This document shows positions 4,176 to 64,000 of a stretch of DNA of 64,000 bases, piece after piece. Numbering within the stretch: the first letter of the stretch is position 1; each line of letters begins with the position of its first letter. A program made the translations under genes and the position numbers. The DNA comes from Paraspadella gotoi (taxonomy: Eukaryota; Animalia; Chaetognatha), in assembly GCA_051294375.1 (NCBI GenBank), contig CM119265.1, positions 16,622,005 to 16,686,004 of the forward strand, in the 5' to 3' direction. The notes under the pieces were generated by a model. That model had not been told where the DNA came from and did no database searches. It saw only the letters and a program-made list of their open reading frames with translations.

Positions 4176-4323
4176 TATAGTAACTAAAGCAAAAAACAAA
4201 ATATAATAAAAAACTAATCGAAGCATCGCAGAAAAATCAGGGGAAAAAGTGGGAACTCATTGAGCTATTTTTAAAATTGAATAAAAAGAAAAAAAGAAAA
4301 AAGTACTTCGAACATGATATAAT

Positions 4324-12254
<7,931 letters not shown>

Positions 12255-16300: not shown

Positions 16301-18208
16301 AGGGGGAAAGAAGGGAAAAGTGAGAAAGAAAAGAAAGGAACAGGAGATAAATAAAGGGGAAGAATGAGAGAGATGAGGATAGAAAAAAAAGGAGAAAATA
16401 ACAAAGGAAAAAAGCAGGGAAAAATTGGAGAAGAGAGAGAGGGGTAAAAATATGGTGAGAAGGGGAGAGGAGAATAAGAGAGAACATAAAAAAAATAGTT
16501 TTTTTTTTAAATTTAAAGATTTCATACCAAAAAATGAAAAAAAATCACATTTGAAAATTAACCGAATTTAACCGTTAAAATGAATATATTAACGGTTAAG
16601 TTAAAATTATTTTTAACCGTTAATAACCGTTAAGAAAAAGGGTCATTCAATCAACTTTAAAATAGGCTAAAATGGAGTACAAATTCAGAAAGCTGAGCTC
16701 TGGCGATTCCGAAAATGTATTTACTTTAAGCATTTGATGCATTCTACCCCATTTTATATCGGTTTTAATTATAATATAAATAATAAAAGAAACCTATCTG
16801 AAGAGTTGCAGATCAAACGAAAAGGCCAATCCACCTGATATTTTTTATGAATTTTTTATTACTGAATTAGAAAATGTAATAGAGAGACATTTTTAAATTT
16901 CAACTTGTATCCTTGAAAATGATACGTTTTTAAAACTTTAACCCTGAATTCTTTCTAACTGGAACGCGTTTATCAAAATGTCTCTCTATTACATTTTACA
17001 AATGTTTTTAAGATTGCTAATCAAATTTTTAATTCAATATTATTGCAGTCGTTCTAGGCTGCAAATCGTCTTCAAATTCATGTGTAGATTCATTGTAGCT
17101 CGAATTTCTTTATCATCATATTTAACTGAAGATTTGTTCATGACTGGAAAACCAACAGAGTAAACTGAGATTAATTGCTTAATTCTCCCCTTCTAAATTA
17201 TCCTATACCGTGATTTAACTTCTTACCTAGAATTTCGTAACAACCAGATTGAAAAACAAATCTTTAGAAAATGTGCTTACCCATTTAACTTAACAATTTT
17301 GTTATTTACCCATTTAAAAAAAATTATTGAAAATGGAATGTTTACATATAAATAAGAACTTATTTTTTTGTGATTACTGATGACTATAATGTATTTCTCG
17401 ATATATTAGCTCTAACACATCAATGATTACGTATTGTTATGCTGAAAGACCTTTCCTCTTAACACTTAACGGTTATCGGAACACTACTCTGAATATATCC
17501 TAGCAGTCTTTATATTTCTTATTATTATCTAATCAGGTGATAATGAACTACGAAATACAATTTTAATTCCATAACGAATCACGCCAATGTCAAATTCGGG
17601 TACAGCGTACTAATAACTTAAAAAAGGGTGCTAAAGAGATTTTGGTCACAAGAAAGACTATTCTCTATAAAAATACTATAAATCGACGCATGATGATGTT
17701 CTCCATTCCCACGAGAGGGAATCTGGGGGATATGTCGTAGCAAGGGGAGGAGGTAGCTTGTTGACTACCTCTCGCTTCTTTACTTTTCCGATATCAAGTT
17801 ATTTATAAAGATTTATCACTGATGCTCTCAGTGGCTGCCATTGGCGAAACTATATTTATCGAAAATTTAAAAGATACGTACTTTTATAAATATCAGATAA
17901 GGATCAAGTCTGTCATTTTTTCTGGTTTTTTAACCGTTTACATATCAATAAAATATTTTTCAAAAAAACAAAGGATTTCATCTGTAAAAGCTACTTTTAC
18001 ATGCACCTGGGGTTCCCCCGCATTATTACAGTCTTTATATGGCGACTTACGACCGGTCTCTCCCGAAACCTGATCCACTTTTATCAACTTTTTTTGTTGG
18101 TCAAAAAACAATAGCAACCTCACCATGACCAAATCTGGAGGGAAAAAAGCGAAGGGGTTTGTCCCACGATTCGCCCCTCCGACTAATTCTCTTCTCTCCT
18201 CTCCTCTT

Positions 18209-18253
<45 letters not shown>

Positions 18254-24200: not shown

Positions 24201-24273
24201 GGGGGGTTTAGGGTAAAATTGCGATCTTGTGGCAGTAACCACACGTGACCTTCTGCGATCGACCAACTTATTC

Positions 24274-24305
<32 letters not shown>

Positions 24306-27300: not shown

Positions 27301-30300
27301 TTATATTTTTTTTATCAACTTGAGTTAAAAAAATCTAACAAAATTCAAATCCATATTATACAACTTTTTAATATGACAACTATAATTTTAAAAAGCAATT
27401 TGTTTGAAACTGTTTTTATAAATTATTTCATAAATTATATATTTTTAAATTACATAATACTACTATTTAATATTAAATATTAAAAAATTATTCCTAATAA
27501 GAATTACATATTAGAAATTGCATTCATCATAACACAATTAGAATTAAAAAAATTTAGCAGCTGATCAGATAAACTTTTATCATTGTCTGATTAATGTTAA
27601 GTTAATTTAGTAGTATATTTTTTTTGCTATTTAGGTTTGTTAAAAGTAATTTAACAAATTATTTTTTAAGTTAATTTAGTAAGCGAGAATATATTATTGA
27701 GAATTTAGTTGTAAATATTCAGTTTTAAAAGTTCAGTTCATACAACGGCTTTCAAAATACCTGCCTATTTTAACATATTGAATTACACGTTTTAGATATT
27801 TAGCTATATTTTTTGAAATTTTTTAAAAAAGAATACAGCTTTTTATAAGCTTATATTCTTAGTATGTAACAGGATAAAAGATAAAAATAATAAGTTAAAT
27901 AAAAAAACAATAGTTATGTAGCTCTATTAGATACACACTCATATAAAACTTATGAGATTGTTTACCAAGTTATTTAGAATTTTTGAATTTATCATTTGCG
28001 TTCAATATTAAATTTTTCATCTTCCATTAAAATCCTTTTTTTTTTGTTTTTATTGTTCTATAATAAGTATTGATGATTTTCGGTTTTTTAAGTTTTAGAT
28101 ATTTTGCTTTTACCAAAATGACACTTTAAAATCATGGTGTTACCACGAATATTTAAATCGATTTTGGTTCAAAAACCTCAAGATGCCGAGGATGTGGTAC
28201 GAATCAGTGCATCATCTGATTTAAAGTGTCAGGACACATCATGCAAATCACTGAACTATGTTCAACGTTTAAGTAAGTGTTAGAAACATGTTCATGTAGA
28301 TTTATATATCAAATTGTATTATATGATCAATTGTAAACAATATTTATGCGAACAATAAATTTTAGCTTTTATTACTCTTAAATTGCAAGAATAACTATTT
28401 TAAGTGGTTTATTACAAATTTATTAGGGATAAATTACTCTTCTCTGGTGGCATTCTGCTCAACAAAATTACGTGCAAGAAGCCAACATATTGAATTGCAT
28501 TTGGATGCCGGGCAACCTCTGATTGATGGTACCGGTTCGCGAATAAACAACTGTATTGACTCCCAAGGTGAATTGACAATTTTTTTATTAGGAAGTACCA
28601 AATATCACTAAATTACATATTTTTCAGGCCGGTCATTGAATTCTTTACAAAATGCAAATCCATCAACGTTTAGTCTTAACTCTCGACGAGTGGAAGATGT
28701 TATGATAAGATGCCCCCATTATGGATGGAGAAGGTAAATTTATATTATGGTTAACGAAGTAATTTTTTAAACTTTTGACTTTTTTTTCATTAGGGAGGAA
28801 TCCCATGTTCGCGGAAAGTTGAATTCTACAAAGAACCTTTCCAAGGCGTCCTCCGGTCAACAAACTAGTGTTTTATATAGAGTTTTGCATGGACCTTTAA
28901 ATGATCGAATTTTCTCACGTCAAAGATCACGTTTAATTTTCTGTCCTTTTGGCTGTATAAATGGCGGATGTCTTTAGTAAGAATTCTCTACTATTTCCAA
29001 CTTTATTCTTTAATCTAAAATATTTATTTGTCGGATCTGCTTATCAACAGATCCCGACTCTATAATTCACTTTGTCGGTCCGCCCCCTCAATATTGTCGG
29101 GCAAAACCCCAAAACCCCGGTCGGCGAAAGTAAAATTAAAAAAAAAGGTCAAAACAGAAGACTAAGTCTAGAAGCGATGACTAAATAGGCTATGTGTGGA
29201 ATTTTAATTGAGATATTATGGCAACGGGAGGATTGCCTGTGATACCCGGGGCGCGGGGTATCTCAACAACTGGCGTAGGGGCTGCGGAGTGCGGACCCTC
29301 AGTGACCGCCACCTGTCACAGGCATGTTTAAACCGGGTCCGTCAAATTCAAGCCAGAACCGGGATACCCAGGAATTGAACCCGGTTGCAAAGAGATGATT
29401 TTGCCTGCTCAGCCATTGAGATGAGGCTGAGGACGGACAGCAGTGAGTCAGCTTTAAATCGTACTGCCACAATGTATTAATACCCTTAAAAGTGTTAAGT
29501 ATTGTAAGTATTTTAAAGCGTATTAGATGATTAAATACGATACTTTATAAAAATGTAAAATAAAAAAATATTATATATTGAATATAATAATATTTTTAGA
29601 TGAAAACTTAAAAAAAAACAACAAAAAAAACAGCATCAATATAAAATACAACCGCATCTCACAAAGGATATTTTAAACTCACCAAAAAAAACTACCCCTT
29701 TGGGAGGCTTTCCTCCCAGTCTTTTCGCCATAACGTCTGTGTTTTTAGGTTCCTTGAGCAAGTCAACGATTCCTTGCAAATCCTTCTTCACTTTGATATA
29801 TCCACGAATATCCTTGAACCTGACGACGTTGTTATCATGTTTGACAGGAACTGGATCAGGCGATCCGCTGACGAGTTCGCTTTCAGGAGCTGATTCCGTC
29901 GGCACCTCGGTCGGTACTTCCTCATTGGGTTGTTCTTCCTCCAGAATGACGGCAGGCGGCGCCGCTACTTTCTCTTCGTCCGGCTTGAGCGACTCTTCGA
30001 CTGGTGAGTCGTCTGGCGCCAATGGGGGAACCACTTCTGACGCCGTCGATGGATCAACCTCGGATTTACCTAATGCGCGAAGAAGATCAATCAGGATCTT
30101 ACACAATTTGAGCTATTTGAGTAATGAGTATTCAATTCGAGTTGGGAGTATCTTCTGCGTATAACTTATTTTCTGCTTAAGAGACTTTCTAGTTTCTACC
30201 AGAATAACTCATATTATCGTTTAATCATATCGCACTTGGATAAACTTAAAATAAGCTAAAAGGTTGTAAAGTTGATAAAAAAAGAAGAAATTTTGACCTG

Positions 30301-30811
30301 AATCGAGCAGCGTTTCTGGAACGACTCCGACGGGCACATCGCCAGTTTCCCCCGGCAACGTCTCCACCGAATCTTTAAGGAGATCTTCGGTAGATGGCGC
30401 CTCGTCACAGCCCCGCTCCGATGAATTCTGCTGTTCGGAAACCACCAAAGCAGAGGAATTGAATGTATGGCTTGGGGTCGAGGTAGCAATCTTTTCCACT
30501 CGCTTAAGGCGCTGGTTGTCGTAAATCAAGTAACATATCGCGACCCCAAGGGCCAACGGAACGGCCTGGCGTTGCCACTTTCCCCGAATTACTTCCTCTT
30601 CAGGAGTTTCCGAGGTGTTAAGATGGCGTCTGAGGTAGAGAAAGAAGTTCTTGCGTCGCAAAGGCGTCGAAGGCAAAGGACCAACTGAGCGAGTAACCGA
30701 ACGAAAAGCGGCTGACATTGTTAGAGATCTTCCACGAGGCAATTGGTTATTGAGGGTATAAATAGAGGATCGCGATAAAGGCGATGTACAAAACTTACTC
30801 AAAACCCCCAT
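13354..30811 (-). CDS. YME1L/FtsH-like mitochondrial AAA metalloprotease paralog with degenerate ATPase motifs; ~10 exons
   Basis: Presequence plus TM; [93 protein letters not shown]. Exons approx 30811-30298, 30069-29683, 23387-23188, 22211-22054, 15351-15087, 15014-14881, 14641-14502, 14320-14184, 14110-13964, 13890-13354. Confidence 0.88.
15454..17486. mobile_element. Non-autonomous hAT element (2.0 kb)
   Basis: TIR TAG(A/T)GTTCCGATAACCGTTAA; perfect 8-bp TSD CTCTGAAT (15446-15453, 17487-17494); repeated AACCGTTA motifs; purine-rich low-complexity core. Confidence 0.92.
15636..15669 (+). ncRNA. Decayed minimal hammerhead-ribozyme-like motif (Penelope-type)
   Basis: CTGATAA-a-GACT..AGTC-GAAACATGTC; core G8 is A, so probably inactive. 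Confidence 0.45.
18762..21879 (+). CDS. C2H2 zinc-finger transcription factor nested antisense in a YME1L-like intron
   Basis: Exon 1 18762-18844 (..CLQCFK|GTAAG), exon 2 20776-21879 ([26 protein letters not shown]..., further CxxC fingers, P/S/Q-rich tail). Needs one extra A in the A9 run at 18814-18822 to be in frame with ATG 18762. Confidence 0.85.
19148..20082. mobile_element. Palindromic foldback MITE (~935 bp)
   Basis: catggtgacaattt..gccggtagaaata versus tatttctaccggc..aaattgtcaccatg; arms complementary over most of the length; TA on left flank. Confidence 0.9.
20350..20535. mobile_element. Inverted Penelope-like terminal-repeat relic with hammerhead-like core
   Basis: Palindrome (tgttttcagacaa / ttgtctgaaaaca; ggacatgtttcgg / ccgaaacgtgtcc) enclosing CTAATGA-a-GGCT..AGCC-GAAACGTGTC at 20441-20474. 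Confidence 0.5.
23457..24056. mobile_element. hAT-type palindromic MITE
   Basis: Imperfect 8-bp TSD ATGGTCAA/ATGGTCAT; homologous to 7121-7440 and related to the 33738, 37187 and 38728 copies. Confidence 0.8.
24228..24755 (+). mobile_element. Complete TRIM (miniature non-autonomous LTR retrotransposon)
   Basis: LTRs 24228-24446 and 24543-24755, each TGTGGCAG...CTGCCACA with TATAA and AATAAA; 96-bp interior with PBS-like TGGTAAGCCACGACGT and PPT GGTGAGGGGA; 4-bp TSD ATCT. Confidence 0.92.
25132..25796. mobile_element. Tc1/mariner-type MITE
   Basis: TIR C(A/C)GAAGGCTTCATATTATAAAATG..GGTACCCCTTTTTTGTGACCAGA; TA flanks on both sides. Confidence 0.88.
26265..27230. repeat. AT-rich tandem array (~120-bp units with shorter variants)
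   Basis: Recurrent gagat(a/t)cgaaatggattttttgatctgattttgaattt..aatatgcagattagcataa. Confidence 0.85.
28134..28977 (+). CDS. Putative 4-exon, 189-aa gene or pseudogene nested in a YME1L-like intron (weak RPA/MEIOB OB-fold resemblance)
   Basis: Exons 28134-28272, 28427-28567, 28628-28733, 28794-28977 joined at GT-AG sites give 570 nt with no internal stop; GC-richer than flanks. Confidence 0.45.
29029..29135. mobile_element. Helentron/DINE-like (HINE) fragment
   Basis: gtcggatctgcttatcaacagatcccgac hairpin plus tctataattcactttgtcggtccg; inverse copy at 35465-35540; aaccccggtcggNgaaagtaaaatt shared with 48044, 48108 and (inverted) 24172. Confidence 0.6.
29195..29471 (-). mobile_element. Solo-LTR-like or tRNA-derived SINE-like element
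   Basis: TGTGG...CCACA ends; minus-strand A-box-like TGGCTGAGCAGG and B-box-like GGTTCAATTCC; core shared with 11434-11504. Confidence 0.4.
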
Positions 30812-31193
30812 TATGTCGAATCGAGTTTCAATCTTGAATTTTTTTCAATTTTTATGTTTTAGTTTCAACACAAACATACATTTTTTCCTTCCTAAAATTG
30901 TAAACGTTGACGAAAAAGTAGAAAAGCGAATATGTGAACGGTTTTTTTATAAAACAAAAACTTAACATAACTGATAACTCAACATAAACCGAAAAGAAAC
31001 CGCGACATGGCCACGAAGAACTGTAAAATATGACGCTTATAAAAATATAAAAACAACAGACTCCGAATAAAAAAAGACGTTAATAATACATAATATCGCG
31101 GAATGCACGATAGTTTTCTGTGAGATAAATTTCTTCATCTTCGTAAAATTTAAACATTAGGCAAACAATAGAAATATTTTGATCAAAACTGTT

Positions 31194-38221
<7,028 letters not shown>

Positions 38222-38392: not shown

Positions 38393-40189
38393 TCACGCAC
38401 GTGAAGTGGAGGGTTCATCTCCCCGAGTTGAACCTTTCTCCTTGGCGCCGCGCATTTCCTTGGGGCGTTGAATGGTGGCATGTTCAATCTTGTAGACATC
38501 GATAATTTCACGCCACTGCGGGTAAGTTAAGCCGACGGCCACTTGACTAAAAAGTCTCGTATTTCCCATGACGGGGTTGCCGTCTTTGTCCACTTGTCGC
38601 TCGCAGGGTTCTATAACCGGAAGCTTGTCGTCGTCTAGGAAAACCTTCGCCATTCCTTTAAACGTCATTTTAAAGTAAACAATGATTTATTTCAGACTAG
38701 GTACGTTCTAAATACTAGTATATTTACTAAGGCGTAGTAAAATTTCCAAATTTAACTTTAATTAAAATTCTAAAAGTGAGGAACGAACAACATTATACTA
38801 ATGAACATTTATGTATAAAAAAAATTTATCATAAATTTTACAATTTACGCAGTAGGCCATATTTATACTAGTACTAATCGAATAAATGTTAAAATTTCAA
38901 AACAGTTTTTTTAAAGATTTTTTTGCAGATTTGGATTCGTCATAAAAAGTTGATAAAAAGAAATATAACTCTTTTTGAAAAATTCCTTCATTAAGTGGGT
39001 CAAAAATTAGAAAAAGTTATATTTGAAGCTGAAAATTAACTTTTTATATATTAAATATAGTTGTTTTAATTTTTAACCCACTTAATGAAAGAATTTTTAA
39101 AAATGATTTATATTTTCTTTTATCAACTTTTGACGAGGAATTCAAATTTGCAATCAAAATTAAAAAAAGCCTATTTTGTAATTTTTAGATTTTATAAGGA
39201 TAGTACTATATATAATTATAGCCTACTGCGAAAATTAAAAAACAAAATAATTTTTTTTTACAAATTAATGTTCACTGATGGTATGTTGTTCCTAATTGAC
39301 TTTTAGAATTTCCGTACGTAACTTTCAATACGCTCTAATATTTACCTTCTCTGACTAAAAACGAAAGGTAGAAAATGTTTTCGACCGTCTTTCCGAAAGA
39401 ATTGGGGTCACAAATGAATTCGAAATAATCGATGGGCTCTTCGTTGTAATTTCTGTAATATTTCTTGAGTTGCGAGTGGACGAACTCAGTCATTTTGGCT
39501 GTCGTCTCCTCGTTCGTCGTCTCTACCCGATCCATTTCCTTCACTTGAGTTTTGTTGTTAAGAAATTCGTCTTTGTCAACCTTGTTACGCTGCTTGACGA
39601 CCTTTTCCTTTCCCACATAGGCAGATCGTTCGAAAGTTCCCAGCATGCAAGTGTAAGAGGGAGCTGAGCGGAAGTATTTGCTCACCCTCTGACCCAATGT
39701 TTTCCACTTTGTCGAGGGAATTCCCTCCCCGCGCTTGGAGCCAACAAAAACAGAGAGACGTTGGGCAAAGTCAGTCGAGTGGAATGTAAACATATCTGTC
39801 TTGAGGGCCTGAGCCTTTTGCTTTCCCAGCATAGCGATGTGCGCGATGGTACTAGAATCCATGGCCGCCTCACGCGTCTGGGTCACCGAATTGTATAGTT
39901 TATCGACTTGTAAGAGCTTTTCGGTGATATTAAAATTTCCGTGGTCGACGTATTCTTTAGCATTGACGTGAAGATCCTCGAGGACGTCTCGGTATTGGTT
40001 ACGGACTTGGCGTCGAAACGTTTTGGAATCTGCCGGATCAGAGCCCCCGCCCTTTCCATTGCCACGAGTGACATCGAGATTTAACGTTTCTTCGGTTATA
40101 TGGTTCTTGTTTTTACACACTGAAGGCTTAAATTTTTTTCTAGAACGACGGGGACTTTCTTCGTCAGAGTTTTCTGAATTTTGGCTCAT
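38393..40189 (-). CDS. NSMCE4A: SMC5/6 kleisin NSE4; 2 exons
   Basis: RRQVRNQYR, VTQTREAAMDS, MLGT, YFEFICDPNSFGKTVENIFYLSFLVREG; intron 39345-38658. Confidence 0.92.
38728..39337. mobile_element. hAT-type MITE (copy B, inverted relative to copy A)
   Basis: Reverse complement of 37187-37804; perfect 8-bp TSD ATATTTAC. Confidence 0.93.
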
Positions 40190-44094: not shown

Positions 44095-46589
44095 CACGGT
44101 TCTTTTTATAGGAGGAAAAAGAAAATGGAAATATACCATCTCTGGAATGATAAAAACCTGAAAGGTTGCTGTCTGGACAAGAGCTTAGGCTAAGTCGAAA
44201 AATTTGTCCAAACTCAGTTTTTTTTTAAATTGCAGTTGAAGTTGGTAAGTTAATTTTTGAAAAAATTTGATAACTTTTGTACTAATTTTGCAAAATATAG
44301 ACTCAATTCAAACATCTATATGTCAAACGATATCAGTAAACCGAGAGCTTTAATTTAAGACCACTCCCAACTTTCTCCGACTTTTGGTTAAAAAGTTATT
44401 AATCAAAATATATTATTTTTCTTTAAAAAAGTAATGAAATGATGAGTATTATTGAGAATATAATAAGACTTTAATCTAAAAAATTGAGGATACCAACGAG
44501 TTCTATAGACAGTCTTCTTTCAATTAATTCATAAATAAAATTTTTCTTCAAGCTTAAATATAGGTACATCATCCCCCAAAAATTTAAAAAAATATAAATT
44601 AAATTTGTAAATAATTTACCATAATGATTTTATATAATTTTACTTAATATATATGGACTAGAAACTATAGGATGTGACCTTCATTTTGAGCCTATTGTCA
44701 ACTCTTTACGATAAATATTTATTGAGATACTACCAAAGAAAGCCCCAAAAATCTTTAAAAAACGTAATTTTTAATTTATTTAAGTCATATCTCGGTGAAT
44801 ATATAACTTATTTTAAGTCAAATGATTTTATTCAGCAGATTAAAGTGTAAGGCACATATTAAATACCATTAGTTGTATTATTTTATCATAATTTAATCAG
44901 GACACTTAATTTTCAGACAATTTTTACCAAATTTACATATACTTTTGGTTTTTACAGCAACAAAGTACTAAAACAGGTAAATAAAAATTGATGATAAAAT
45001 CTGTAAGCCAAAAGACCTTAGAATGTATAATATAGGTTTAAAAATTTTTCTCATAAAGATTTAATGATATAATGACAATAAAAAAATAAAAAAAATTTTA
45101 TATATAAATTAAAGATTGAAGAAAAATAATGATATTACAGTTAGTTTTTTATGATTATTGTAGTGCTTGTAGTAGTAGTCGTGGTAGTAGGGGTCTCAGT
45201 GGTTGAGGTTTCTTTGTGTTTGGTGTGGGAATAATTTTTTTTGGTCATTATAATTGTTGTGGTCAATATTGTTATCATGGTTGTTATTATAATTATAATA
45301 TATTTTAAATAGATATCATATAGTAGTCATAGTAGGTGGTTGTAGCTATTATATCTGTAATAGAACTGAGAATTATGGTATGAATGTTGTGATTGTTTAG
45401 AGTGTAGGAAATATGTTTTTATAATATAAAATTTTTTTTAAATTTACCTACTCTTTTAAGTAAATAAAACTTTTAATAATTAGTGGTTTAAGAATATGGC
45501 TATCTTTTTATAATATAGAATCATGATAAATAAGAAAAAACTAACTGTAATATCATTATTTTTCTTCAATCTTTAATTTATATATATAATTTTTTTTATT
45601 TTTTATTGTCATTATATCATTAAATCTTTATGAGAAAAATTTTAAACCTATATAATACCTTCTAAGGTCTTTTGGCTTACAGATTTTATCATCAATTTTT
45701 ATTTACCTGTTTTAGTACTTTGTTGCTGTAAAAATCAAAGAATATGTAAATTTGTTTAAAATTGGCTGAAAATTAAGTGTCCTGATTAAATTATGATAAA
45801 ATAATACAACTAATGGTATTTAATATGTGCCTTACACTTTAATCTGCTGAATAAAATCATTTGACTTAAAATAAGTTATATATGCACTGAGATATGACTT
45901 AAATAAATTAAAAATTATATTTTTTAAAGATTTTTAGGGCTTTTTTTGGTAGTACCTCAATAAATATTTATCGTAAAGAGTTGGCAATAGGCTCAAAATG
46001 AAGGTCACATCCTATAGTTTCTAGTCCATATATATTAAGTAAAATTATATAAAATCATTATAGTAAATTATTTACAAATTAATTTATATTTTTTTAAATT
46101 TTTTGGGGGATAATGTACCTATATTTAAGCTTGAAGAAAAATTTTATTTATGAATTAATTGAAAGAAGACTGTCTATAGAACTTGTTGGTATCCTCAATT
46201 TTTTAGATTAAAGTCTTATTATATTCTCAATAATACTCATCATTTCATTACTTTTTTAAAGAAAAAATAATATATTTTGATTAATAACTTTTTAACCAAA
46301 AGTCGGAGAAAGTTGGGAGTGGTCTTAAATTAAAGCTCTCGGTTTACTGATATCGTTTGACATATAGATGTTTGAATTGAGTCTATATTTTGCAAAATTA
46401 GTACAAAAGTTATCAAATTTTTTCAAAAATTAACTTACCAACTTCAACTGCAATTTAAAAAAAAAACTGAGTTTGGACAAATTTTTCGACTTCGCCTAAG
46501 CTCTTGTCCAGACAGCAACCTTTCAGGTTTTTATCATTCCAGAGATGGTATATTTCCATTTTCTTTTTCCTCCTATAAAAAGAACCGTG
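44095..46589. mobile_element. 2.5-kb foldback element, Chapaev-like (CACGG ends, 4-bp TSD)
   Basis: ~1.05-kb near-perfect inverted arms (44095-45150 / 45535-46589); TSD TCAC on both sides. Confidence 0.93.
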
Positions 46590-46814
46590 TCACATATTTT
46601 ATTTCTTGACTTTTATATGACACCTTTTATGATTGTAATTCAGTTAAAATTGTGTCGGGCCAATATATATATTTATAAATATAATTATCCCTCCGTTAAT
46701 AATCACATAATTGCAAAAATATGATAACTTTCTACCAAATATAAACCTAATTGGGCAATGGGCATTCCTAGAGATTAATACGCTCCAGAGGTTTATGGGA
46801 AAATGAAGAGCAAG

Positions 46815-51085: not shown

Positions 51086-53216
51086 CTAACGTCTCACGTA
51101 AAAAAGAACGTAGGCCTCGGGGGAGACAACGTCATTCGGGTCACGGATGCGCGAAACCATGCGGTCGTTGAAGGCGAACCAACCGTCCAGCGTTCGGCAA
51201 GCGGCGGTGTAGTGTCCCCTCGATAAACTTCCGAAATGATTTGAAACGCAGTAAAGGTCGTAAACGCAGATGTGTGCGGTTGACTCGCTCTTCGAGGCCG
51301 GTCGTGTGAACGAGAGATCGAGGCCATCAAGTGGGAAATTAACCAGGTCGTTGACTTTTTTCGGTCGCGCTCCGTGATCCGACGAGTGAAATCGGTTAAG
51401 AGAAACGACGAGAACTTCTGGCAGTCGGTGGAGATCAATTTTCTTGGAAAAGTTCCGCGGCATCTTGCACTTCGGGCACCTCCATTTGCAAGAAGGGGAT
51501 GCCGGAGGCGAAGCGTCGCCGACGACGCCTGTACCTGCGGCGCACTCTGTGCGAGACCCGACGATTTCGCGAGAGAGGTAGGCTCGCAGACATTCCTCCA
51601 CCGTGACGGCGCGTTTGGGAAAAGAGGACTCGGGGATAGGAAGCGCGAGGCATTGAAATTGTTCGTAAGTCGAACTCATGGTGCCGCAGGTGAGGCATTC
51701 GAGCGTAGAGCAACTTTGACCGGAAAAAAGATCAGTGACGATCGAACGTCCGTTTTTCAGCAGTTGCGATTCCCAGAACTTTTTGGCAAGCAACTCCCCC
51801 TTGTTGTTGTTCCCATCAACCACCTGAGAAAAGCAAAATAAATTCATTTTAAATAAAGCAAAATAGTGAACGTTTAAAACCGAATTACAATGAAACTTGT
51901 CTCACCTGAGAGGACCTCATGGTGGTAGCTGTAAGGGTGAATCTCTCACCCTCCCTCTTATGGGAGAGATCTTGGTGCAAGGCGTTCAAGAACCAGACGA
52001 GAAATTCGGACGAGTCCTGCTGCTTGTTCTTGGGAAAAGGAAACCCGAAGGCGGGTAAGGCCTCGATGAAATCGTCCGGATCGACGGAGGGTTCCTCGCA
52101 GGACCAAAGGCGCCGAGTTAAATTTTGATACTCGACCGAAAGAGGGACGTCGTCGCGTGAGAGCGGCGTTTGTAGAACCCAGCGTTTCAGCCGCGGGATA
52201 TTGGACAAGCATTGAATAATGCTGTTCATGTAACAGTAGAAGCTTGGATTGCGCAGCCCCGCCGTGACGGGCCTCGTCGCGGCGTCCACATGAAAAACTG
52301 ACGAGGCGAGTGGCGACGGAGGTGGTTGAGGCCGGCCTGGCGAAGATTTTAATGATTCAAATTTGGAACGAGGCGGTGTGGGAGTTAAGCAGTATTCGTG
52401 GTCGCGCATCGGAGGAGTCACGAGAAAGGACGTTTCCTCCTCGTCCAAGTCGTCAGCTTCGTCGCCGTTAACGACTTCTCCCGGGGACTCTGGAGGCGTC
52501 TCCAAGGGGATATCGGGAAGCGGCGGCCGCTTCGCCCCGGAAAGGACTGGATTGACCGATGCTTTTGGAGGCGTAATAGGAAAAATGATGTTGGCCGAAG
52601 GGGGCGGGGTGTCCCTGGCGGCGTGGTCCCTCTCCACCTCGAAAGGATCAAGGGGAACGAAGTTGTTCAAAAAATCCTTGGTAGGGCCGCGGCGTGAAGG
52701 CCCCAACTTGCGCCTTTTTTCGTTGCGCGTCTCGCCGGCCGAAGCGGCGGCTAGAGCGGAAAGCAAAGATCCGTGGAAGGCCAAAGTAGTTTCGATCTTT
52801 CTTGTTGTCGGGAAGAAATACTTACCCGGGTCTCCACTTTGAACGGTCGGGTCTTCTGAATCTCTCTTAACGGATGAATCCACAGGCTCGACGATATCTT
52901 TCACAGAGCTCGACCCATACCCTTTCCGTTTCTTGACATTGCTCCGGCCCTTCGGACTCGTCTCGCCAAGATCCACCCCTTTAAAGAGGTCTTCGACAAG
53001 GAGCCCAACGATTCTATTCTTTCTTGCCTTGGGATTTAGCTCCACGTTACGCAGTCGGCACATCTCTTTGAGTTCGTACATATCGCACTGTTTGTGAAAG
53101 CATTGGGCGACGTGGTGCGAGAGCTGAATCTGCCGTTCCTTCTCATTTTTAACTTGTAATTCTATGGCAGCCAGCCCAGTTGTCATGAATACATTGATTT
53201 TACTGATTGGGTCCAT
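51086..53216 (-). CDS. Ubiquitin-specific protease (USP2/8/21-like) with unusual N-terminus; 2 exons
   Basis: Cys box GLRNPSFYCYMNSIIQCL, QQDSSEFL, His box HFGSLSRGHYTA..FNDRMV; intron approx 51904-51824. Confidence 0.88.
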
Positions 53217-53300
53217 ATTGCTATAGAAATCAAAATAAAATTAATATACATATGAAAAGAATAAATTAAGAAAAAACCGGCAACAATGGTTAACTGTTAT

Positions 53301-54950
53301 TCATTCGATCTTCAAATCTTTCAACAATGATTCCCTCGCTTCTACCATTCTCGATCGGGCTTGCTGAAAGGCCTGGACGACGCTGATCAAATGAAACATA
53401 CCACCATGCTTTTCTTTCGCCCCGTGAGCGACGTTTCCGAAAAAGGGCGTTCCCGATTTGGAACGGAGTGACTTCGAGGAGCTCACGAGCGATTGCGACT
53501 GAAAAACCAAATTCATACGCACCCGAACTGATCCGGTTGAGATTGTCTGTAAACCAAACTGGTTCAGGTGAAATACTTCGGACTCGAAATTTTCAACTGA
53601 CGGTTTGGCAATGTAAAAGGGATCGTCCAATTCTGGCGATCCTCCCACGAAGTAACGACGCAGTTCGTCAACGGGACCGCCGACCGGCCTCCAGCAATGG
53701 ATGTCGAGTGAATGGGAACCAGGCCGAGTCGGCAGTGGAGTGACTCCATATCCCTCGGTTCGCGTGCGGTGCCATGAATCACGAGACATGACCTGTAACA
53801 ACAACTGTGGCCACTCCTCGAAAGAAAAGGAAAGCTCCGAGGCCTTTAAGCGATTAGTTTTGCACGGGCGGGCATCTTTCTTTTCCCCAAGATTCCGGTA
53901 GACCAAGTCCAACTCGAAACACTCGCCAAACATGGCCATTCCGGATCTTCTCACGCCGCAGCAATGAGTCGACCCAGTCAAGACGGAGTCCAATTTCGAG
54001 TCGGATTCCGCTGAGGACGACCACCACCATTTACCGGGTACAACGCGCCAGGCGACGTAAAGCCGGTCGTATTCAAATCCGCGGGCGGAGACAATCTCGC
54101 CAAAGCAAGTAAGTCGTAGCCCATCCGGAGGCGGAACCTCGAAGTCGACGCCGACAAGGGTTTCGCGCGCTTTTGCGTGTCGCTCGTAGAAGCGGGCAAG
54201 AATGTTTGATTCTTTTACCATCTCTTCACGCAACATCGGTTCGCTGGCGTTTTCTAGGTAAATTTCCCAAGAGTCGAGGCCACCGAGGGATTCTACGCGG
54301 TAGGGCTGCTTCTGCTCCAAAGGATTGAAGTCCGGGTCGATAATGAAAGTTCCGTTTAGGTTGTAGTGTAGGGTGCAAAGGACGACCTGGACTTCGACGC
54401 CCTCTTCTGCCGGATCAGCTTCTTCCGGAGTTAGATCGGCTACGATTCTCATCGTCCGCCAAACTGATCCCTGCTTAGTTTTTCCACCCATTACGGAAAA
54501 TGATTCGACCGACATAGGGCGCGGAATTTCTTCATCGGGTGATCTGATCAATGAAACGTTGGCATCGAGGGCGGCGTCAACATCGACGTAAGAAAATATC
54601 CGGTTGGTCGGATGGGGTTCGCCCGCGTTGCGAATAGCCGCAACCGACTTTCGGTACTTTTCCACCAGGGGTGTGTCGTTGGGGGAAGTGGGTCGTCCGT
54701 ATTCGACAAATTCGCGGCGGCTAAATATTTTTTGTTGCCAGGAGACAAGTCGAGTTTCTGGCACCGAGTGAGTCTCTAGCTGACGCATCTGTTTAAGCTC
54801 AACTTCGTCGCCTTGCTGCCGCGCCATCTCGAGAAACAATGAAGAGGATGTAACTCGCTGAAGTCGAACGCGTAAACGGAAGTTTGAAATGGCGTCGCGT
54901 GACCGGTAGACGGCCGTCGATCGCTCACGCTGCGTCGGGAGGGACGGCAT
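53301..54950 (-). CDS. MKS1: Meckel syndrome type 1 (B9-C2 ciliary transition-zone) protein; intronless
   Basis: AVYRSRDAISNFRLRVRLQ, SWQQKIFS, GEIVSARGFEYDRLYV, DSWHRTRTEGYG, LRRYFVGGSPEL, AFQQARSRM. Confidence 0.93.
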   Translation of the reverse strand: MPSLPTQRERSTAVYRSRDAISNFRLRVRLQRVTSSSLFLEMARQQGDEVELKQMRQLETHSVPETRLVSWQQKIFSRREFVEYGRPTSPNDTPLVEKYRKSVAAIRNAGEPHPTNRIFSYVDVDAALDANVSLIRSPDEEIPRPMSVESFSVMGGKTKQGSVWRTMRIVADLTPEEADPAEEGVEVQVVLCTLHYNLNGTFIIDPDFNPLEQKQPYRVESLGGLDSWEIYLENASEPMLREEMVKESNILARFYERHAKARETLVGVDFEVPPPDGLRLTCFGEIVSARGFEYDRLYVAWRVVPGKWWWSSSAESDSKLDSVLTGSTHCCGVRRSGMAMFGECFELDLVYRNLGEKKDARPCKTNRLKASELSFSFEEWPQLLLQVMSRDSWHRTRTEGYGVTPLPTRPGSHSLDIHCWRPVGGPVDELRRYFVGGSPELDDPFYIAKPSVENFESEVFHLNQFGLQTISTGSVRVRMNLVFQSQSLVSSSKSLRSKSGTPFFGNVAHGAKEKHGGMFHLISVVQAFQQARSRMVEARESLLKDLKIE

Positions 54951-59353: not shown

Positions 59354-60928
59354 TTAGGGTCCCCGCCAGTTGTAAACTTCTCCGGAATAAACGTATCCGT
59401 TGGCCTGAGCGAGTTCGTCGTTTTCCTTCGGTCCTCTGGTTCCGTAAACGTACGGAATGGGCTTCGGCTTTTCCCTCTCGATGCGATGTAGAAGAGGAGT
59501 GAAGATACGCCACGCCTCAACCAATTCGTCGGAGCGAACGAAGTGAATCTGGCTGCCGCTGAAGACGTCGAGGATAAGTCGCTCGTAGGCGTCCGGGAGC
59601 ACGATGCCTCCGTACCGATGCGAGTAGGTAAGATCGAGCTCGGTAAGCTCGCACCCAAAGGTCATCCCCGGTTTTTTCGTCATCACCTTAACGTACACGG
59701 CTTCGTTGGGCTGGACGCGAATTACGAGCTCGTTGCGCTGCACATCGGGACCGAAGATATCGCCAGAGACGTCCTTGTATTGAATGCGAACTTCGGCCTT
59801 TCTCTCGTTGAGCGCCTTGCCGCACCTCAAAATGAACGGCACGCCCTCCCATCGCTCGTTGTTGACGCGGATGACGGCGGTGGCGAAAGTAGGGGTAGCA
59901 GAGTTGTCGGGTACGGTTGGGTCATCCCTATACCCTTGACGGGTTTCGCTATCGGCCGGAGCGTCAGGATTGCCCACGTACTGACCGAGAACGCAATCCT
60001 TGAGTTCGATCGACGGTACAGATTTGAGAACCTTTACTTTTTCGTCGCGAATATCTTCCGCGTTCAAGGAAGGTGGTTTCTCCATAGCGACTAGTGTAAG
60101 GATCTGCAGAAGGTGGTTCTGCATGACGTCGCGAATGATGCCGAAGCCGTCGAAGTAGCCACCGCGACCCTGCGTTCCAAAAGGCTCCTTGAAAGTGATG
60201 ACGACGGAGGCGATGTTGTCTCGGTTCCAAGTCGGTGCGAAAATGCGGTTGCTGAATCGCAACGTCAACAAATTCTGAACCATCTCTTTGCCCAGGTAGT
60301 GATCAATTCGATAGATCTCATCCTCAGCGAAGCGCTCCTCTAAGTGCCTCGAGAGTTTTAGAGAGGATTCGGAATCGTGACCAAACGGCTTCTCCACGAT
60401 CAACGAGATCTTCCCGTGGCCCTCGCGGCAATTTTCCGAGACGAGAGCGGACACGGCCAAATAAACGCTCGGGGGCAAAGCCAAGTAAAAATAAACTCGC
60501 TTGTTCTTATCCTTGCAGACGCCGTTGATGTGGTCGTTGAGTTTAATGAAATCCCCGGCCAAATCATAACTTCCCTTTACGTACGAATTGATAGCAAGAA
60601 ACTGGGAAAATTTATTCCCGTTATTTTTTTGCTCTTCTATAGTAAGTTTAGAATGTGGCGCTATTCTCGCTCCGATGTCGGCGACGGTCAAATCGGACCG
60701 AGCGTAGCCAACGATGCGAGAGTTCGCCGGAAGGAGTCCATCTCGGAAGAGCCACCACAACGTCGGGTAAATCTTCTTCTTGGACAGGTCACCCGACGCT
60801 CCCAGAACGACAAAGATGTGCACTACTTCCTTCTCCACCGAGACTGTCTCCCGGACAGCGGCGATGCCGGAAGCACGATGCTCTTGTGAGCCCTTCTTGT
60901 GACGAGTTTCGGGTTTGGCGGAAGACAT
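59354..60928 (-). CDS. G6PD: Glucose-6-phosphate dehydrogenase; intronless
   Basis: [33 protein letters not shown]. Confidence 0.98.
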
Positions 60929-61269
60929 CTTTGATCGTGAGACTCGTTGGAAGCTTCGAAAAATAAGTTACCCGCGACTGACGTTAGTTAATAGTGTATG
61001 GACCTGCCTCTCTTAAAATGAAAGTAAACGTAAAAAAAGAACAAAAAAAGGAGAAGAAAACTAAAATTAACTATTTTATTTAAAAAAAAAAACAACAAAA
61101 AAACCACAGGCAATGGAATAAAAATTAAGAAGAATTTAACTCAAAATGTTTAATAAATCATTATGATTGTCATATAAAATTGTTAACGAGTTTTTTTTAT
61201 TAATTTCAATCTCAGCACAATAATCTATTTGTTTTTAAGTTAACTCTTTTTTGTTTTACTTCATAAATG

Positions 61270-62391
61270 TTAAAGTCTTTCCTCGCGTCCGATATACATT
61301 TCAATGAGTTCGTCGGCCGCGTCGGCGGGAGCGAGACGACCATCGCTCACCCTACTCTCTATGTCTCTCGCCGAATCCTGACCCACTCTCGCATAAAACA
61401 ATTCTAAGAGTCTAGAGTTCACTCGGTTCCACATCCAAACCTTTAACTGTTGCTTCCTGCGCGCCTGAAACTCTCCCGATTCGATCATGGTCATTCGAAA
61501 CTTCTCCATCAGATCCCAGAGATCTTCGAGGCCATCGCCGGTTTTTGACGAGACTCGTTTGACGCAGGGTCGCCAGGACGAACTCCGCGGTCGCACAAAT
61601 TTGAGGGCGGAGGTGTACTCGGCGGAGATCTTTCTGGCGGCGTCAATGAGATTCCCGTCGCTTTTGTTGACGACGACGACGTCGGCGAATTCAATGACTC
61701 CTTTCTTGATTCCCTGAAGCTCATCACCGCCCGCCGGCGGAATGATCAACACGAACATGTCGACCATGTCGGCGACGGAGACTTCGCTTTGACCGACGCC
61801 CACAGTCTCCACGATTACGATGTCAAATCCACAGCATTCTGCCAGAGTGACGCTTTCGTTGGTGACGCGAGTGACTCCGCCTAAGGCGCCCGCATTAGGT
61901 GAAGGCCGGATAAAGGCGCTAGGATTGACTGAGAGTTCTGGCATCCGCGTTTTGTCGCCCAGAAGAGACCCGCCTGAGGTAGTGGAGGAGGGATCAACGG
62001 CAAGAACGGCAAGTTTGTAGTTCTTACCAATCAAAAGTTTGCCAACTGACTCGATGAAGGTGCTCTTGCCGGCCCCGGGGGGGCCCGTCAGTCCAATCCG
62101 AAATGACTTGGGGACGTCGAGATTGACGCGACGATTATGCTCGAGCACCATGGAAAGCAATTTTTTGGCATCAGCACGCTTGCGAGGGTGCACTGATTCC
62201 ACCAAAGTGACACTGCGCGCGAGTGCGGCACGCTCCCCCCTAACGATACCCTCAAAAAGATCGTGGACACTTGGTTGTTTCACTTTGAAATGGGAAAAGT
62301 TTGATTCCCACCGTCGAGCACAGATTGGGGTGTTCGGCAGTCCCTGATGAAATCGAAAAAAACGATTTGCCGGGAAGCAGATTTTCGACAT
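61270..62391 (-). CDS. MMAA: Mitochondrial methylmalonyl-CoA mutase GTPase chaperone; intronless
   Basis: Presequence; GPPGAGKST, VDPSS..GGSLLGDKTRM, ETVGVGQSE, GDELQGIKKG, NKSD. Confidence 0.96.
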   Translation of the reverse strand: MSKICFPANRFFRFHQGLPNTPICARRWESNFSHFKVKQPSVHDLFEGIVRGERAALARSVTLVESVHPRKRADAKKLLSMVLEHNRRVNLDVPKSFRIGLTGPPGAGKSTFIESVGKLLIGKNYKLAVLAVDPSSTTSGGSLLGDKTRMPELSVNPSAFIRPSPNAGALGGVTRVTNESVTLAECCGFDIVIVETVGVGQSEVSVADMVDMFVLIIPPAGGDELQGIKKGVIEFADVVVVNKSDGNLIDAARKISAEYTSALKFVRPRSSSWRPCVKRVSSKTGDGLEDLWDLMEKFRMTMIESGEFQARRKQQLKVWMWNRVNSRLLELFYARVGQDSARDIESRVSDGRLAPADAADELIEMYIGREERL

Positions 62392-62441
62392 TTTTTAAAA
62401 TCCTGTACATGTATATGACTATGAATGAGAATGAGATAGAT

Positions 62442-63722
62442 CTAGGTAAGTGTAACGTTTTTTATTTTTTCTAAAATCGTCCCTATGATCTTATTCAAGT
62501 ACTGTTCGGTATTTTCATCTTTGATGAACGAGGGAAAAACGTTGAGTGTAAAATCGGGTCCAAAGCGCTCAAACTCGGAACATTCTGCAGGGACTTCTTC
62601 GGAAATTTCTTTCTCCAAAATTGCAGCTGTCAATAGGGTCCAGCATTTGGCAGTATTCACGTGATTATAACCGCCTCCGCCTAAGACTAAAGTAGGAACT
62701 GGGCAAAATCCTCTCAATGACTCCAAACAACGCCGCATGCCTAATGGAGTAAGATTAAAGGCGAGGTTGGGATCGCCGGAAATGCAATCAGCGCCGCACT
62801 GTACGACGACGGCATCTGGTAAAAATTTTTTTGAGACTTCGCCGACTATTTTACAAAAAGTATAGACATATTTGTCGTCCCCGATTCCGTTTTTAAGCGG
62901 AACGTTTACGCAGTGACCCAGACCCTTGCCGATACCCTCCTCGTCGACGCCGCCGGTGCCAGGAAAAAATCCCGCCTCAAATTTGTGAAGCGAAACCGTG
63001 AAGACCGAGTTAGTGTGCCGAAAGGCTTCTTGCACGCCGTCGCCGTGATGAAGGTCCAAGTCGATGTAAAGGATTCGATTAAAAGTCTTTGACAACTCGT
63101 GAACGGCGATTACGACGTCGTTTGCGTAGCAAAATCCCGAGGCTCGATCCCGGTGTGCGTGGTGCCAACCGCCCATCCAATTTATGGCGATACCGCACCG
63201 ACCTTGCGTAAGGGAGCGGGCAGCCGCTAGGGAAGCGCCGACGCAAAGTTGGACAAAATCAAACGTTCTCTTCGTCGGGGGACAGTCGTAGGCCAAACCG
63301 AAGTCCTCGCCGGATTGGTCGACGTCGTCGTCTTCGTCAGCGGCGTTTGAATCGCGTAAGTAATTGATGAATGACGAATCGTGAAAGGAAATCAATTCGT
63401 CGTAAGAAGCCAAATCTGGTTTAATGATCCTCGTCTCCTTCAGCAATCCGTAACTCTGAACGAGCGAATGGAGCAAGAGTGCTCGACCGGTAATTTGTAC
63501 CAACCCGTTGCACCGCAAAAATAATCGCTCGGAGAAGACGTAGCCGACTGATGATGGAGCTAGATAAGGTTTACTAACTGTGAGGGACGGTAGAAGGACT
63601 GGAGTGTCTCGAGAGTAATTTCCGATTTTTTTACGAAACCGCCCATCGAATGAGCCATTATTAGCAAGAACGTTTTCGTCGTCGTCGTCGGAATTTAAAT
63701 CGTATGCACTGCAATGGGACAT
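62442..63722 (-). CDS. HDAC8: Class I histone deacetylase 8; intronless
   Basis: FGLAYDCP, GGWHHA, DLDLHHGDG, HKFEAGFFPGTG, GGGGYNHVNTAKCW (HDAC8-type); ATG 63722 directly after TTCCAG. Confidence 0.92.
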   Translation of the reverse strand: MSHCSAYDLNSDDDDENVLANNGSFDGRFRKKIGNYSRDTPVLLPSLTVSKPYLAPSSVGYVFSERLFLRCNGLVQITGRALLLHSLVQSYGLLKETRIIKPDLASYDELISFHDSSFINYLRDSNAADEDDDVDQSGEDFGLAYDCPPTKRTFDFVQLCVGASLAAARSLTQGRCGIAINWMGGWHHAHRDRASGFCYANDVVIAVHELSKTFNRILYIDLDLHHGDGVQEAFRHTNSVFTVSLHKFEAGFFPGTGGVDEEGIGKGLGHCVNVPLKNGIGDDKYVYTFCKIVGEVSKKFLPDAVVVQCGADCISGDPNLAFNLTPLGMRRCLESLRGFCPVPTLVLGGGGYNHVNTAKCWTLLTAAILEKEISEEVPAECSEFERFGPDFTLNVFPSFIKDENTEQYLNKIIGTILEKIKNVTLT

Positions 63723-63903
63723 CTGGAATAAGCCCAACTCTGAAATCTTTGATCGAATATCGTATATTGTAAAAAAAGAGTAGATAAATTCCTGGCACAA
63801 TTTGATAATTTAATTTCATGATTAAAAAAAAACGAACCCAAACGCCAAAAAAAGTTTTATAAAACATCACATTTTCAGTCTGTTAAAAGAAAAAAATGGA
63901 GCT

Positions 63904-64000
63904 TCACTTGCAGATGCCGATGACCCCGCAAGCCAGCCTGGCGCCAGCATTCCCTGTAATGAGGCTAAGATCATGGCCTCCTTTGCCAAGATCGTCGACG
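63904..64000 (-). CDS. SOD1: Cu/Zn superoxide dismutase, C-terminal end
   Basis: [31 protein letters not shown]-stop. Confidence 0.93.

What the first reader, a model, noticed from the sequence alone, without database searches (positions are those of the whole stretch)
62380..62445. 50-nt HDAC8-MMAA gap leaves no room for a 3' UTR plus promoter
Seen: on the minus strand the HDAC8 TAG is followed by only 50 nt (..CATGTACAG|GATTTTAAAAA-ATG) with no AATAAA. The MKS1-USP gap is similar at 84 nt (..TTTCTATAG|CAAT-ATG). Inference: upstream 3'-end formation may be directly coupled to, or compete with, downstream trans-splicing (cf. SL1-type operons of C. elegans). Alternatively the mRNA stays dicistronic.
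Basis: partly seen in the sequence, partly recalled or inferred. Interest (0 to 1): 0.7.

Follow-up and report, generated by a model that had tools for sequence, protein, structure and literature searches.

The report
Tight operon junction, likely trans-spliced
Two housekeeping genes of an animal genome sit only 50 bases apart in a long run of same-direction genes, most likely an operon whose transcript is split into separate mRNAs by spliced-leader trans-splicing, an arrangement already known from sea squirts, arrow worms and nematodes.

Summary
The 50-nt HDAC8-MMAA gap (62441-62392) and the 84-nt MKS1-USP gap are real. Both genes are whole, no fusion is possible, and one contig of run X1 bridges the junction. 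The gap is the shortest of 16 scored junctions in a run of 18 minus-strand genes; 9 of the 16 are under 250 nt. Acceptor-like AGs are strongly enriched just before the start codons as a set. The MMAA AG alone is only modest. 'No AATAAA' is true of the gap but uninformative. Best reading (0.62): an operon junction resolved by SL trans-splicing at AG 62404-62403, with the HDAC8 3' end made within the 38 nt before it. Cleavage at the in-CDS signal is slightly preferred over Ciona-type tailing at the AG. No spliced leader or poly(A) site was seen, because only contigs of uncertain kind were available. The phylum is unresolved; chaetognath is a guess (about 0.6). Operons with 0-30 nt between cistrons are published for Ciona, Oikopleura, Spadella and C. 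elegans, so this is a new member of a known kind.

The parts
63904..64000 (-). 3' end of a Cu/Zn superoxide dismutase (SOD1) gene, upstream member of the cluster; runs off the window
   Evidence: Pfam Sod_Cu E 1e-4 on 31 aa, below the gathering score as a fragment
62442..63722 (-). HDAC8 CDS, 426 aa, one open frame without introns; 181 nt after the SOD1 stop
   Evidence: Pfam Hist_deacetyl; HDAC8 384 bits vs HDAC1 313 bits; start matches relatives
62461..62466 (-). AATAAA inside the last HDAC8 codons (K-I-K), candidate poly(A) signal
   Evidence: 1 of only 2 AATAAA in 14,692 nt of CDS; 14% of local shuffles contain one; use is inferred
62392..62441 (-). 50-nt stop-to-start gap; unstructured
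   Evidence: sequence; MFE -3.2 kcal/mol, 200 of 200 shuffles fold at least as well
62425..62435 (-). two tandem CTCAT, candidate branch points (A at 62432 and 62426, 29 and 23 nt before the AG)
   Evidence: the consensus is recalled and only 3 of 28 cis introns here show such a motif, so weak
62408..62410 (-). out-of-frame upstream ATG opening a 53-codon frame that overlaps the MMAA start; it would be removed by splicing at 62403
62403..62404 (-). candidate trans-splice acceptor AG for MMAA (a weaker AG is at 62420-62419)
   Evidence: 1.69 bits, top 4.5% of 3339 minus-strand AGs, at or above 7 of 28 cis acceptors; shuffle p 0.056
61270..62391 (-). MMAA (MeaB-family GTPase) CDS, 373 aa, one open frame without introns
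   Evidence: Pfam MeaB; homologues
59354..60928 (-). G6PD CDS, next gene, 341 nt downstream; membership of the same unit not shown
   Evidence: Pfam G6PD_N and G6PD_C
53301..54950 (-). MKS1-like (B9 domain) CDS; AATGAA overlaps its stop
53217..53300 (-). 84-nt MKS1-USP gap with U-rich tract and candidate acceptor AG at 53222-53221
   Evidence: acceptor score only 0.05 bits, shuffle p 0.47
51086..53216 (-). ubiquitin-specific protease gene (two exons)
   Evidence: Pfam UCH on both exons

Best explanation
HDAC8 and MMAA lie 50 nt apart on one strand and are likely neighbouring cistrons of an operon (SOD1-HDAC8-MMAA, perhaps longer) whose precursor would be resolved by spliced-leader trans-splicing at the AG at 62404-62403, with the HDAC8 mRNA likely ending within the 38 nt between its stop and that AG. 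Shown: the spacing, the intact reading frames, the closed MMAA frame upstream, and the enrichment of acceptor-like AGs before start codons across the window. Inferred: co-transcription, leader addition and the poly(A) site. I slightly prefer cleavage directed by the AATAAA in the last HDAC8 codons (62466-62461). That would cut at about 62441-62431, give a 3' UTR of 1-11 nt and leave a spacer of about 27-38 nt that keeps the candidate branch points, so one precursor could yield both mRNAs. The near-equal alternative is tailing at or next to the AG, as in Ciona and the Spadella RPS14-PCNA operon, where the two mRNAs would compete.
For: 18 of 19 genes recognised in the window are on the minus strand (models by eye). 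Of 17 junctions 16 were scored: median stop-to-start 205 nt, 9 of 16 under 250 nt, this one the shortest. The best AG within 100 nt of the start codons sums to 37.6 bits, against -20.4 +/- 12.9 for non-coding controls on the same strand (0 of 20,000 draws), -9.1 +/- 14.8 on the other strand (p 0.0006) and -21.9 for the opposite strand of the same stretches. Splicing at 62403 would remove an out-of-frame ATG at 62410. One 3166-nt contig of run X1 bridges both the SOD1-HDAC8 and HDAC8-MMAA junctions. 6 of 7 close MMAA relatives lie on contigs with only 116-642 nt of non-coding room, the seventh has no contig length; this fits separate mature mRNAs. In-CDS AATAAA: 1 of 2 in 14,692 nt of CDS; 5 of 16 upstream genes have AATAAA or AATGAA at -30..+10 of the stop against 1.56 expected, p 0.013. 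Precedents: PMC1488885, PMC2481426, PMC12460157.
Against: No spliced leader, poly(A) tail or splice joint was seen, though contigs drop such forms. Run X1 is only guessed to be RNA, may be the window's own source, and a contig across two genes shows no single transcript. The MMAA AG alone is not significant: p 0.056 by shuffle, matched by 11-17% of control 50-nt windows, with no pyrimidine tract directly before it. The USP AG is unremarkable (p 0.47). 5'-UTR cis-introns would give the same acceptor enrichment in the longer gaps. The acceptor matrix rests on 28 introns picked by eye. The in-CDS AATAAA arises in 14% of local shuffles because the HDAC8 CDS end is 72% AT; the hexamer set and window were chosen after seeing the data; the K-I-K that spells it is absent from the 5 complete unnamed relatives. 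The short contigs of relatives may reflect a different gene order or fragmentation, and one HDAC8 relative has 3565 nt of room. The phylum, and so the presence of trans-splicing, is not established: ASH2L groups weakly with rotifers (SH-aLRT 83, quick tree), HDAC8 weakly near an insect.
Confidence: 0.62

Rival explanations
1. MMAA has its own promoter inside the HDAC8 coding sequence (with a colinear 5' UTR, or a short outron trans-spliced at the same AG), and the two genes are merely packed, with the HDAC8 3' UTR short or overlapping the MMAA 5' end.
For: Nothing in the sequence forbids a promoter in an upstream CDS (general knowledge). The in-CDS AATAAA could end HDAC8 independently. The AG alone is not significant.
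Against: A colinear 5' UTR longer than 18 nt would carry the out-of-frame ATG at 62410, whose frame overlaps the MMAA start. The window-wide pattern of one strand, short gaps and unpaired acceptors fits co-transcription better. For a chaetognath 3-nt junction the authors exclude re-initiation (PMC2481426).
Confidence: 0.17
2. The mature mRNA stays di- or tricistronic (SOD1-HDAC8-MMAA) and MMAA is translated by re-initiation after the HDAC8 stop.
For: One contig bridges all three genes with no joint or loose end at the gap. The gap is unstructured and short, and has no canonical poly(A) signal inside.
Against: Contigs cannot tell precursor from mature RNA or RNA from DNA. A re-initiating ribosome would meet the out-of-frame ATG at 62410 first. 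Close MMAA and HDAC8 relatives mostly lie alone on short contigs. Unresolved dicistronic cDNAs occur as precursors in Ciona operons (PMC1488885).
Confidence: 0.1
3. The AG is the acceptor of an ordinary cis-intron in the MMAA 5' UTR whose donor lies in or upstream of HDAC8, so MMAA is an alternatively spliced product of a shared promoter.
For: The AG scores within the range of cis acceptors; six GTRA-type sites exist in the HDAC8 CDS.
Against: Those sites lack the AG|GT context that most of the donors printed show; no joint was listed (weak); an in-frame TAA between the AG and the ATG rules out a fusion protein.
Confidence: 0.06
4. The short gap is an assembly or gene-calling error.
For: None found.
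Against: Both gene ends match homologues and a contig of X1 has the same spacing.
Confidence: 0.02

Closest known systems
Chaetognath operons (Spadella cephaloptera RPS14-PCNA, PMC2481426; Paraspadella gotoi, PMC12460157)
   Same: Same-strand housekeeping genes at very short distance; 3 nt between poly(A) site and acceptor in RPS14-PCNA; P. gotoi operons were called at under 250 bp (2,151 candidates, 1,470 with a leader). 9 of 16 gaps here meet that distance.
   Different: Leader addition is shown there and not here. The window's phylum is only a guess. Whether this gene set is among the published operons could not be read (spreadsheet too large).
Ciona intestinalis operons without intercistronic DNA (PMC1488885)
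   Same: Poly(A) added at the acceptor G in 19 of 19 mapped cases; 16 of 18 lack AATAAA within 40 nt; competition between the two mRNAs was proposed there.
   Different: Mostly dicistronic in Ciona, while this cluster looks longer. Here an AATAAA 58 nt upstream of the AG offers a separate cleavage site.
Oikopleura dioica operons (as cited in PMC1488885 and PMC7986045)
   Same: Intercistronic regions of 23-30 nt, the size predicted here (about 27-38 nt) if the in-CDS signal is used.
   Different: Oikopleura upstream cistrons are said to lack AATAAA; the primary paper was not held.
C. elegans SL1-type operons (as described in PMC1488885 and PMC9258526)
   Same: Little or no spacer, so 3'-end formation and trans-splicing overlap.
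   Different: They carry a canonical AATAAA for a poly(A) site adjacent to the acceptor; here none lies within 40 nt of the AG. The SL1/SL2 contrast is nematode-specific. The primary paper was not held.
Nematode SL2-type operons (PMC7668243)
   Same: Upstream cleavage and downstream trans-splicing on one precursor.
   Different: Spacer median about 124-129 nt with a Ur motif about 50 nt upstream of the acceptor; at most 38 nt are available here and no stem-loop forms.
Poly(A) signals overlapping stop codons in Giardia and other diplomonads (PMC9014877)
   Same: Signal at or in the coding end, giving very short 3' UTRs.
   Different: Different hexamer (AGURAA); not described as operons in the passages read; here the HDAC8 hexamer lies wholly inside the CDS, 16 nt before the stop.

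Membership tests
SL-resolved eukaryotic operon | Same-strand genes at very short distance | tested here: met
   50 nt; 9 of 16 scored gaps under 250 nt
SL-resolved eukaryotic operon | Unpaired 3' splice acceptor just upstream of the downstream start codon | tested here: inconclusive
   Strong as a set of 16; this AG alone p 0.056
SL-resolved eukaryotic operon | Spliced leader on the downstream mRNA | tested here: inconclusive
   No loose end at 62402 in contigs, which drop such forms; the metagenome scan returned no close relative
SL-resolved eukaryotic operon | Polycistronic precursor RNA | tested here: inconclusive
   One contig bridges the junction, but the run may be DNA
SL-resolved eukaryotic operon | No promoter of its own for the downstream gene | not testable with these tools
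   Needs CAGE or chromatin data
SL-resolved eukaryotic operon | SL RNA gene in the genome | not testable with these tools
   No genome held; no Rfam hit in the window; a chaetognath leader start motif matched 2 times against 2.29 expected
SL1-type / Ciona-type operon (no intercistronic DNA) | Upstream poly(A) site adjacent to the trans-splice acceptor | not testable with these tools
   No raw reads available
C. elegans SL1-type operon | Canonical AATAAA placed for cleavage at the acceptor | tested here: not met
   Nearest AATAAA ends 58 nt upstream of the AG
Nematode SL2-type operon | Spacer of about 50-200 nt with a Ur element | tested here: not met
   At most 38 nt between stop and AG; no stable fold; the stem-loop form of Ur is recalled
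Stable dicistronic mRNA | Mature poly(A) RNA holding both CDSs, both translated | not testable with these tools
   Needs long reads and ribosome profiling
Phylum Chaetognatha (host) | Proteins group with named chaetognath sequences | tested here: inconclusive
   No named chaetognath protein among the listed hits; long isolated branch, weakly with rotifers for ASH2L, unresolved for HDAC8

The most novel reading that the evidence does not exclude
In this lineage the poly(A) signal of upstream cistrons has moved into the last codons or the stop codon (HDAC8, MKS1, MCM6, RecQ-like, orphan gene), so HDAC8 has almost no 3' UTR, possibly with its stop completed by the poly(A) tail, and the remaining 30-40 nt serve only as branch point and acceptor; or else SOD1-HDAC8-MMAA persists as a translated tricistronic mRNA in an animal.
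Probability: 0.1. Interest if true: 0.6.

Novelty: new member of a known kind. Interest (0 to 1): 0.25.

Why it matters
As a junction it is ordinary for trans-splicing animals with operons. Its value is as a test case. How operons with little or no spacer make both mRNAs was left open in PMC1488885, and my one search for chaetognath intercistronic data (3 papers hold both terms, 2 listed, listings only) showed no genome-wide mapping of poly(A) sites against acceptors in that phylum. Here the two models predict poly(A) sites about 30 nt apart, so one 3' RACE decides between them. If coding-sequence poly(A) signals are general in this lineage, codon choice at gene ends would be under RNA-processing constraint.

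Tried and rejected
No RNA holder listed: the run search returned one holder, X1, of guessed kind, and two runs of the same study with next to none of the words. X1 gave no cover at 61150-61228, its contig stopping 41 nt after the MMAA stop; with a share of 0.93 this would fit an RNA end, but a hole proves nothing and I do not use it. The contig starts 404 nt beyond 63990, near where a SOD1 start would fall if the gene has no intron (SOD1 length recalled, outside the window, not checkable). The MKS1-USP junction and all introns remain unchecked against the run, so X1's RNA status is open. Metagenome scan with the MMAA alignment: 80 loci kept of 398 confirmed, best 60% identity, none of the close lineage; 0 of 80 had HDAC8, G6PD or SOD1 nearby and 0 of 80 a chaetognath leader motif. 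Cluster look-up gave no named member among the 32 read. Stop read-through or fusion: rejected; read-through is out of frame and the MMAA frame is closed by TAA two codons upstream. IRES-like or Ur-like structure: none. Rfam: 0 hits. Supplement PDFs of PMC12460157: no mention of HDAC8, MMAA or G6PD; the operon spreadsheet could not be read and may bear on whether this cluster is already listed. Earlier findings of the scan: none. Rows dropped: 1 of 29 candidate introns had no AG at the site; the 4.7-kb EXOSC5-PWWP junction was left out of the 16; the orphan ORF start was taken at its second Met (gap 148) and at its first (gap 97); partial P0003 was left out of the contig-room count. The ASH2L tree is the quick tree, as the careful search did not finish. 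The bacterial promoter scan was not used, as it does not apply to an animal.

Full report
1. Observation. The MKS1-USP gap is 84 nt with an AG 4 nt before the ATG. The gene names hold: HDAC8 scores 384 bits against human HDAC8 and 313 against HDAC1, aligning to residue 424 of 426; MMAA has the MeaB domain and the same length as seven close relatives. The MMAA frame is closed by TAA two codons upstream, so neither read-through nor cis-splicing to this AG can make a fusion. One 3166-nt contig of run X1 covers 61229-63990 with 2 differing letters and no gap, so the spacing is not an assembly error. X1 may be the window's own source and is not independent support for anything beyond that.

2. Context. 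I recognised 19 genes by eye, 18 on the minus strand: SOD1, HDAC8, MMAA, G6PD, PRA1, MKS1, USP, RPB12, EXOSC5, a PWWP-like gene, RRP9, NSE4, MCM6, an AAA protease, RecQ, an orphan, ASH2L and a last unnamed gene. The labels RecQ, AAA protease (YME1L-like), RRP9, EXOSC5 and MCM6 are my reading of translations or of general Pfam domains, not orthology tests. Of 17 junctions I scored 16, leaving out the 4.7-kb EXOSC5-PWWP gap. Their stop-to-start distances are 50, 84, 148, 169, 170, 171, 181, 194, 215, 270, 341, 382, 580, 770, 1019 and 1099 nt. The finding is the short tail of a window-wide pattern.

3. Acceptors. A matrix from 28 cis-intron acceptors of the window (leave-one-out median 3.6 bits) gives the MMAA AG 1.69 bits: top 4.5% of 3339 minus-strand AGs, but at or above only 7 of 28 true acceptors. 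Alone it is not significant: shuffle p 0.056, and 11% or 17% of control 50-nt windows do as well. The USP AG scores 0.05 (p 0.47). As a set the signal is strong: the best AG within 100 nt of the 16 start codons sums to 37.6, against -20.4 +/- 12.9 and -9.1 +/- 14.8 for non-coding controls on the two strands. Cis-introns in 5' UTRs could give the same result in the longer gaps, but not inside a 50-nt gap. An out-of-frame ATG at 62410 opens a 53-codon frame over the MMAA start; splicing at 62403 removes it, while the weaker AG at 62419 or a longer colinear UTR would keep it. Two tandem CTCAT put candidate branch adenosines 29 and 23 nt before the AG; only 3 of 28 introns show such a motif, so this is weak. 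The stretch does not fold.

4. Poly(A) signal. AATAAA is absent from the gap, but only 9% of 50-nt non-coding windows contain one and none of the 9 gaps under 250 nt holds one wholly inside. There is one at 62466-62461 inside the HDAC8 CDS, 1 of 2 in 14,692 nt of CDS. With the usual 10-30 nt to the cut (recalled), cleavage that keeps the stop would fall at about 62441-62431. Against it: the CDS end is 72% AT, 14% of local shuffles make the hexamer, and relatives do not keep K-I-K. For it: 5 of 16 upstream genes have AATAAA or AATGAA within -30..+10 of the stop against 1.56 expected, p 0.013, chosen after seeing the data. At MKS1 an AATGAA overlaps the stop and a U-rich tract follows, an ordinary geometry with a spacer of about 50-70 nt.

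5. RNA evidence. Only contigs were available and the run's kind is a guess. The contig bridges SOD1-HDAC8 and HDAC8-MMAA with no joint or loose end at the gap. That neither shows one transcript nor excludes leaders and tails, which contigs drop. Among close relatives, 6 of 7 MMAA proteins lie on contigs with 116-642 nt of non-coding room (no length for the seventh) and 4 of 5 complete HDAC8 proteins with 139-553 nt; the fifth has 3565 nt. This fits separate mRNAs but also a different gene order. A metagenome scan for leaders on relatives found no close relative.

6. Host. The closest proteins are unnamed (ASH2L 84-88%, MMAA 67-72%, HDAC8 56-57%) and form a long, fully supported branch with the window in both trees. 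Named spiralians follow at about 54% for ASH2L. ASH2L groups with Brachionus at SH-aLRT 83 in a quick tree; HDAC8 is unresolved, weakly near an insect. One MMAA relative comes from a source labelled 'merc', which I recall as a marine plankton eukaryote catalogue. A chaetognath fits all this (about 0.6) but no named chaetognath sequence was among the listed hits.

7. Mechanism. Shown: spacing, intact frames, collective acceptor signal, in-CDS hexamer. Inferred: one precursor from a promoter at or upstream of SOD1; leader addition at 62402 giving MMAA a cap and an 11-nt genomic 5' UTR; HDAC8 3' end within 38 nt of its stop (0.62 overall). Within that, cleavage at the in-CDS signal and tailing at the AG are about equally likely; I prefer the first slightly. 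Rivals: internal promoter 0.17, stable polycistronic mRNA 0.10, cis-intron 0.06, artefact 0.02.

8. What is known. PMC1488885 (passages and sections 14 and 17 read): in 19 of 19 mapped Ciona operons the poly(A) site abuts the acceptor, 16 of 18 lack AATAAA within 40 nt, mutual exclusion is proposed, Oikopleura spacers are 23-30 nt, and C. elegans SL1-type operons carry a canonical signal. PMC2481426 (passages including the operon section, and section 12): 3 nt between poly(A) site and acceptor in a Spadella operon, no position-specific leader. PMC12460157 (passages; 3 supplement PDFs searched; spreadsheet unreadable): 18% of P. gotoi genes in operons called at under 250 bp. PMC7986045, PMC7668243, PMC9258526, PMC9014877: passages only. 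The primary SL1-type and Oikopleura papers were not held and are known here only through these citations. The junction works like a short-spacer SL-resolved operon; membership is likely but not shown, and the SL2-type and strict SL1-type geometries are not met.

9. Verdict. Observation confirmed, interpretation partly supported, new member of a known kind, interest 0.25. The most novel open reading, poly(A) signals inside coding ends of upstream cistrons or a stable tricistronic mRNA, has probability about 0.1 and would merit 0.6.

Noticed in passing
window 1-64000, minus strand: 18 of 19 recognised genes lie head to tail on one strand, most with an acceptor-like AG shortly before the ATG; SOD1 to EXOSC5 (64000-48692) is a run of nine genes with gaps of 50-1019 nt.
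   Followed up: yes
window 53300-53305, 31193-31198, 4323-4328 and near 3745, minus strand: AATGAA or AATAAA overlaps the stop codon of MKS1, MCM6 and the RecQ-like gene, and AATGAA lies in the last codons of the orphan gene.
   Followed up: partly
window 3726-4226, minus strand: Orphan ORF without Pfam match; the true start is likely the Met at 4175 or the next one, behind a U-rich tract and AG, giving an N-terminus that looks like a mitochondrial targeting peptide and a hydrophobic stretch near the C-terminus.
   Followed up: partly
window 63723-63724, minus strand: An AG directly precedes the HDAC8 ATG (TTCCAG|ATG); better-scoring AGs lie 69 and 157 nt upstream, the latter followed by three upstream ATGs.
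   Followed up: partly
window 20697-21879, plus strand: The only plus-strand gene seen, with Cys/His zinc-finger-like motifs (no Pfam hit on the frame tested), nested antisense in an intron of the AAA protease gene.
   Followed up: no
window 59354-63722, 53301-54950, 1846-3510: HDAC8, MMAA, G6PD, MKS1 and ASH2L coding regions are single open frames without introns, while MCM6, the RecQ-like and the AAA protease genes have many introns, some several kb long.
   Followed up: no
window about 13354-30811, minus strand: The AAA protease (FtsH/YME1L-like, label recalled) looks divergent in its P-loop and protease motifs and has a long low-complexity C-terminal exon; it may be a degenerate paralogue.
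   Followed up: no
window about 44100-46600: A long AT-rich inverted repeat, arms at roughly 44100-45150 and 45550-46620, seen by eye, in the 4.7-kb gap that breaks the gene run; likely a foldback or MITE-like element. A shorter one lies at about 37200-37800 and 38700-39300.
   Followed up: no
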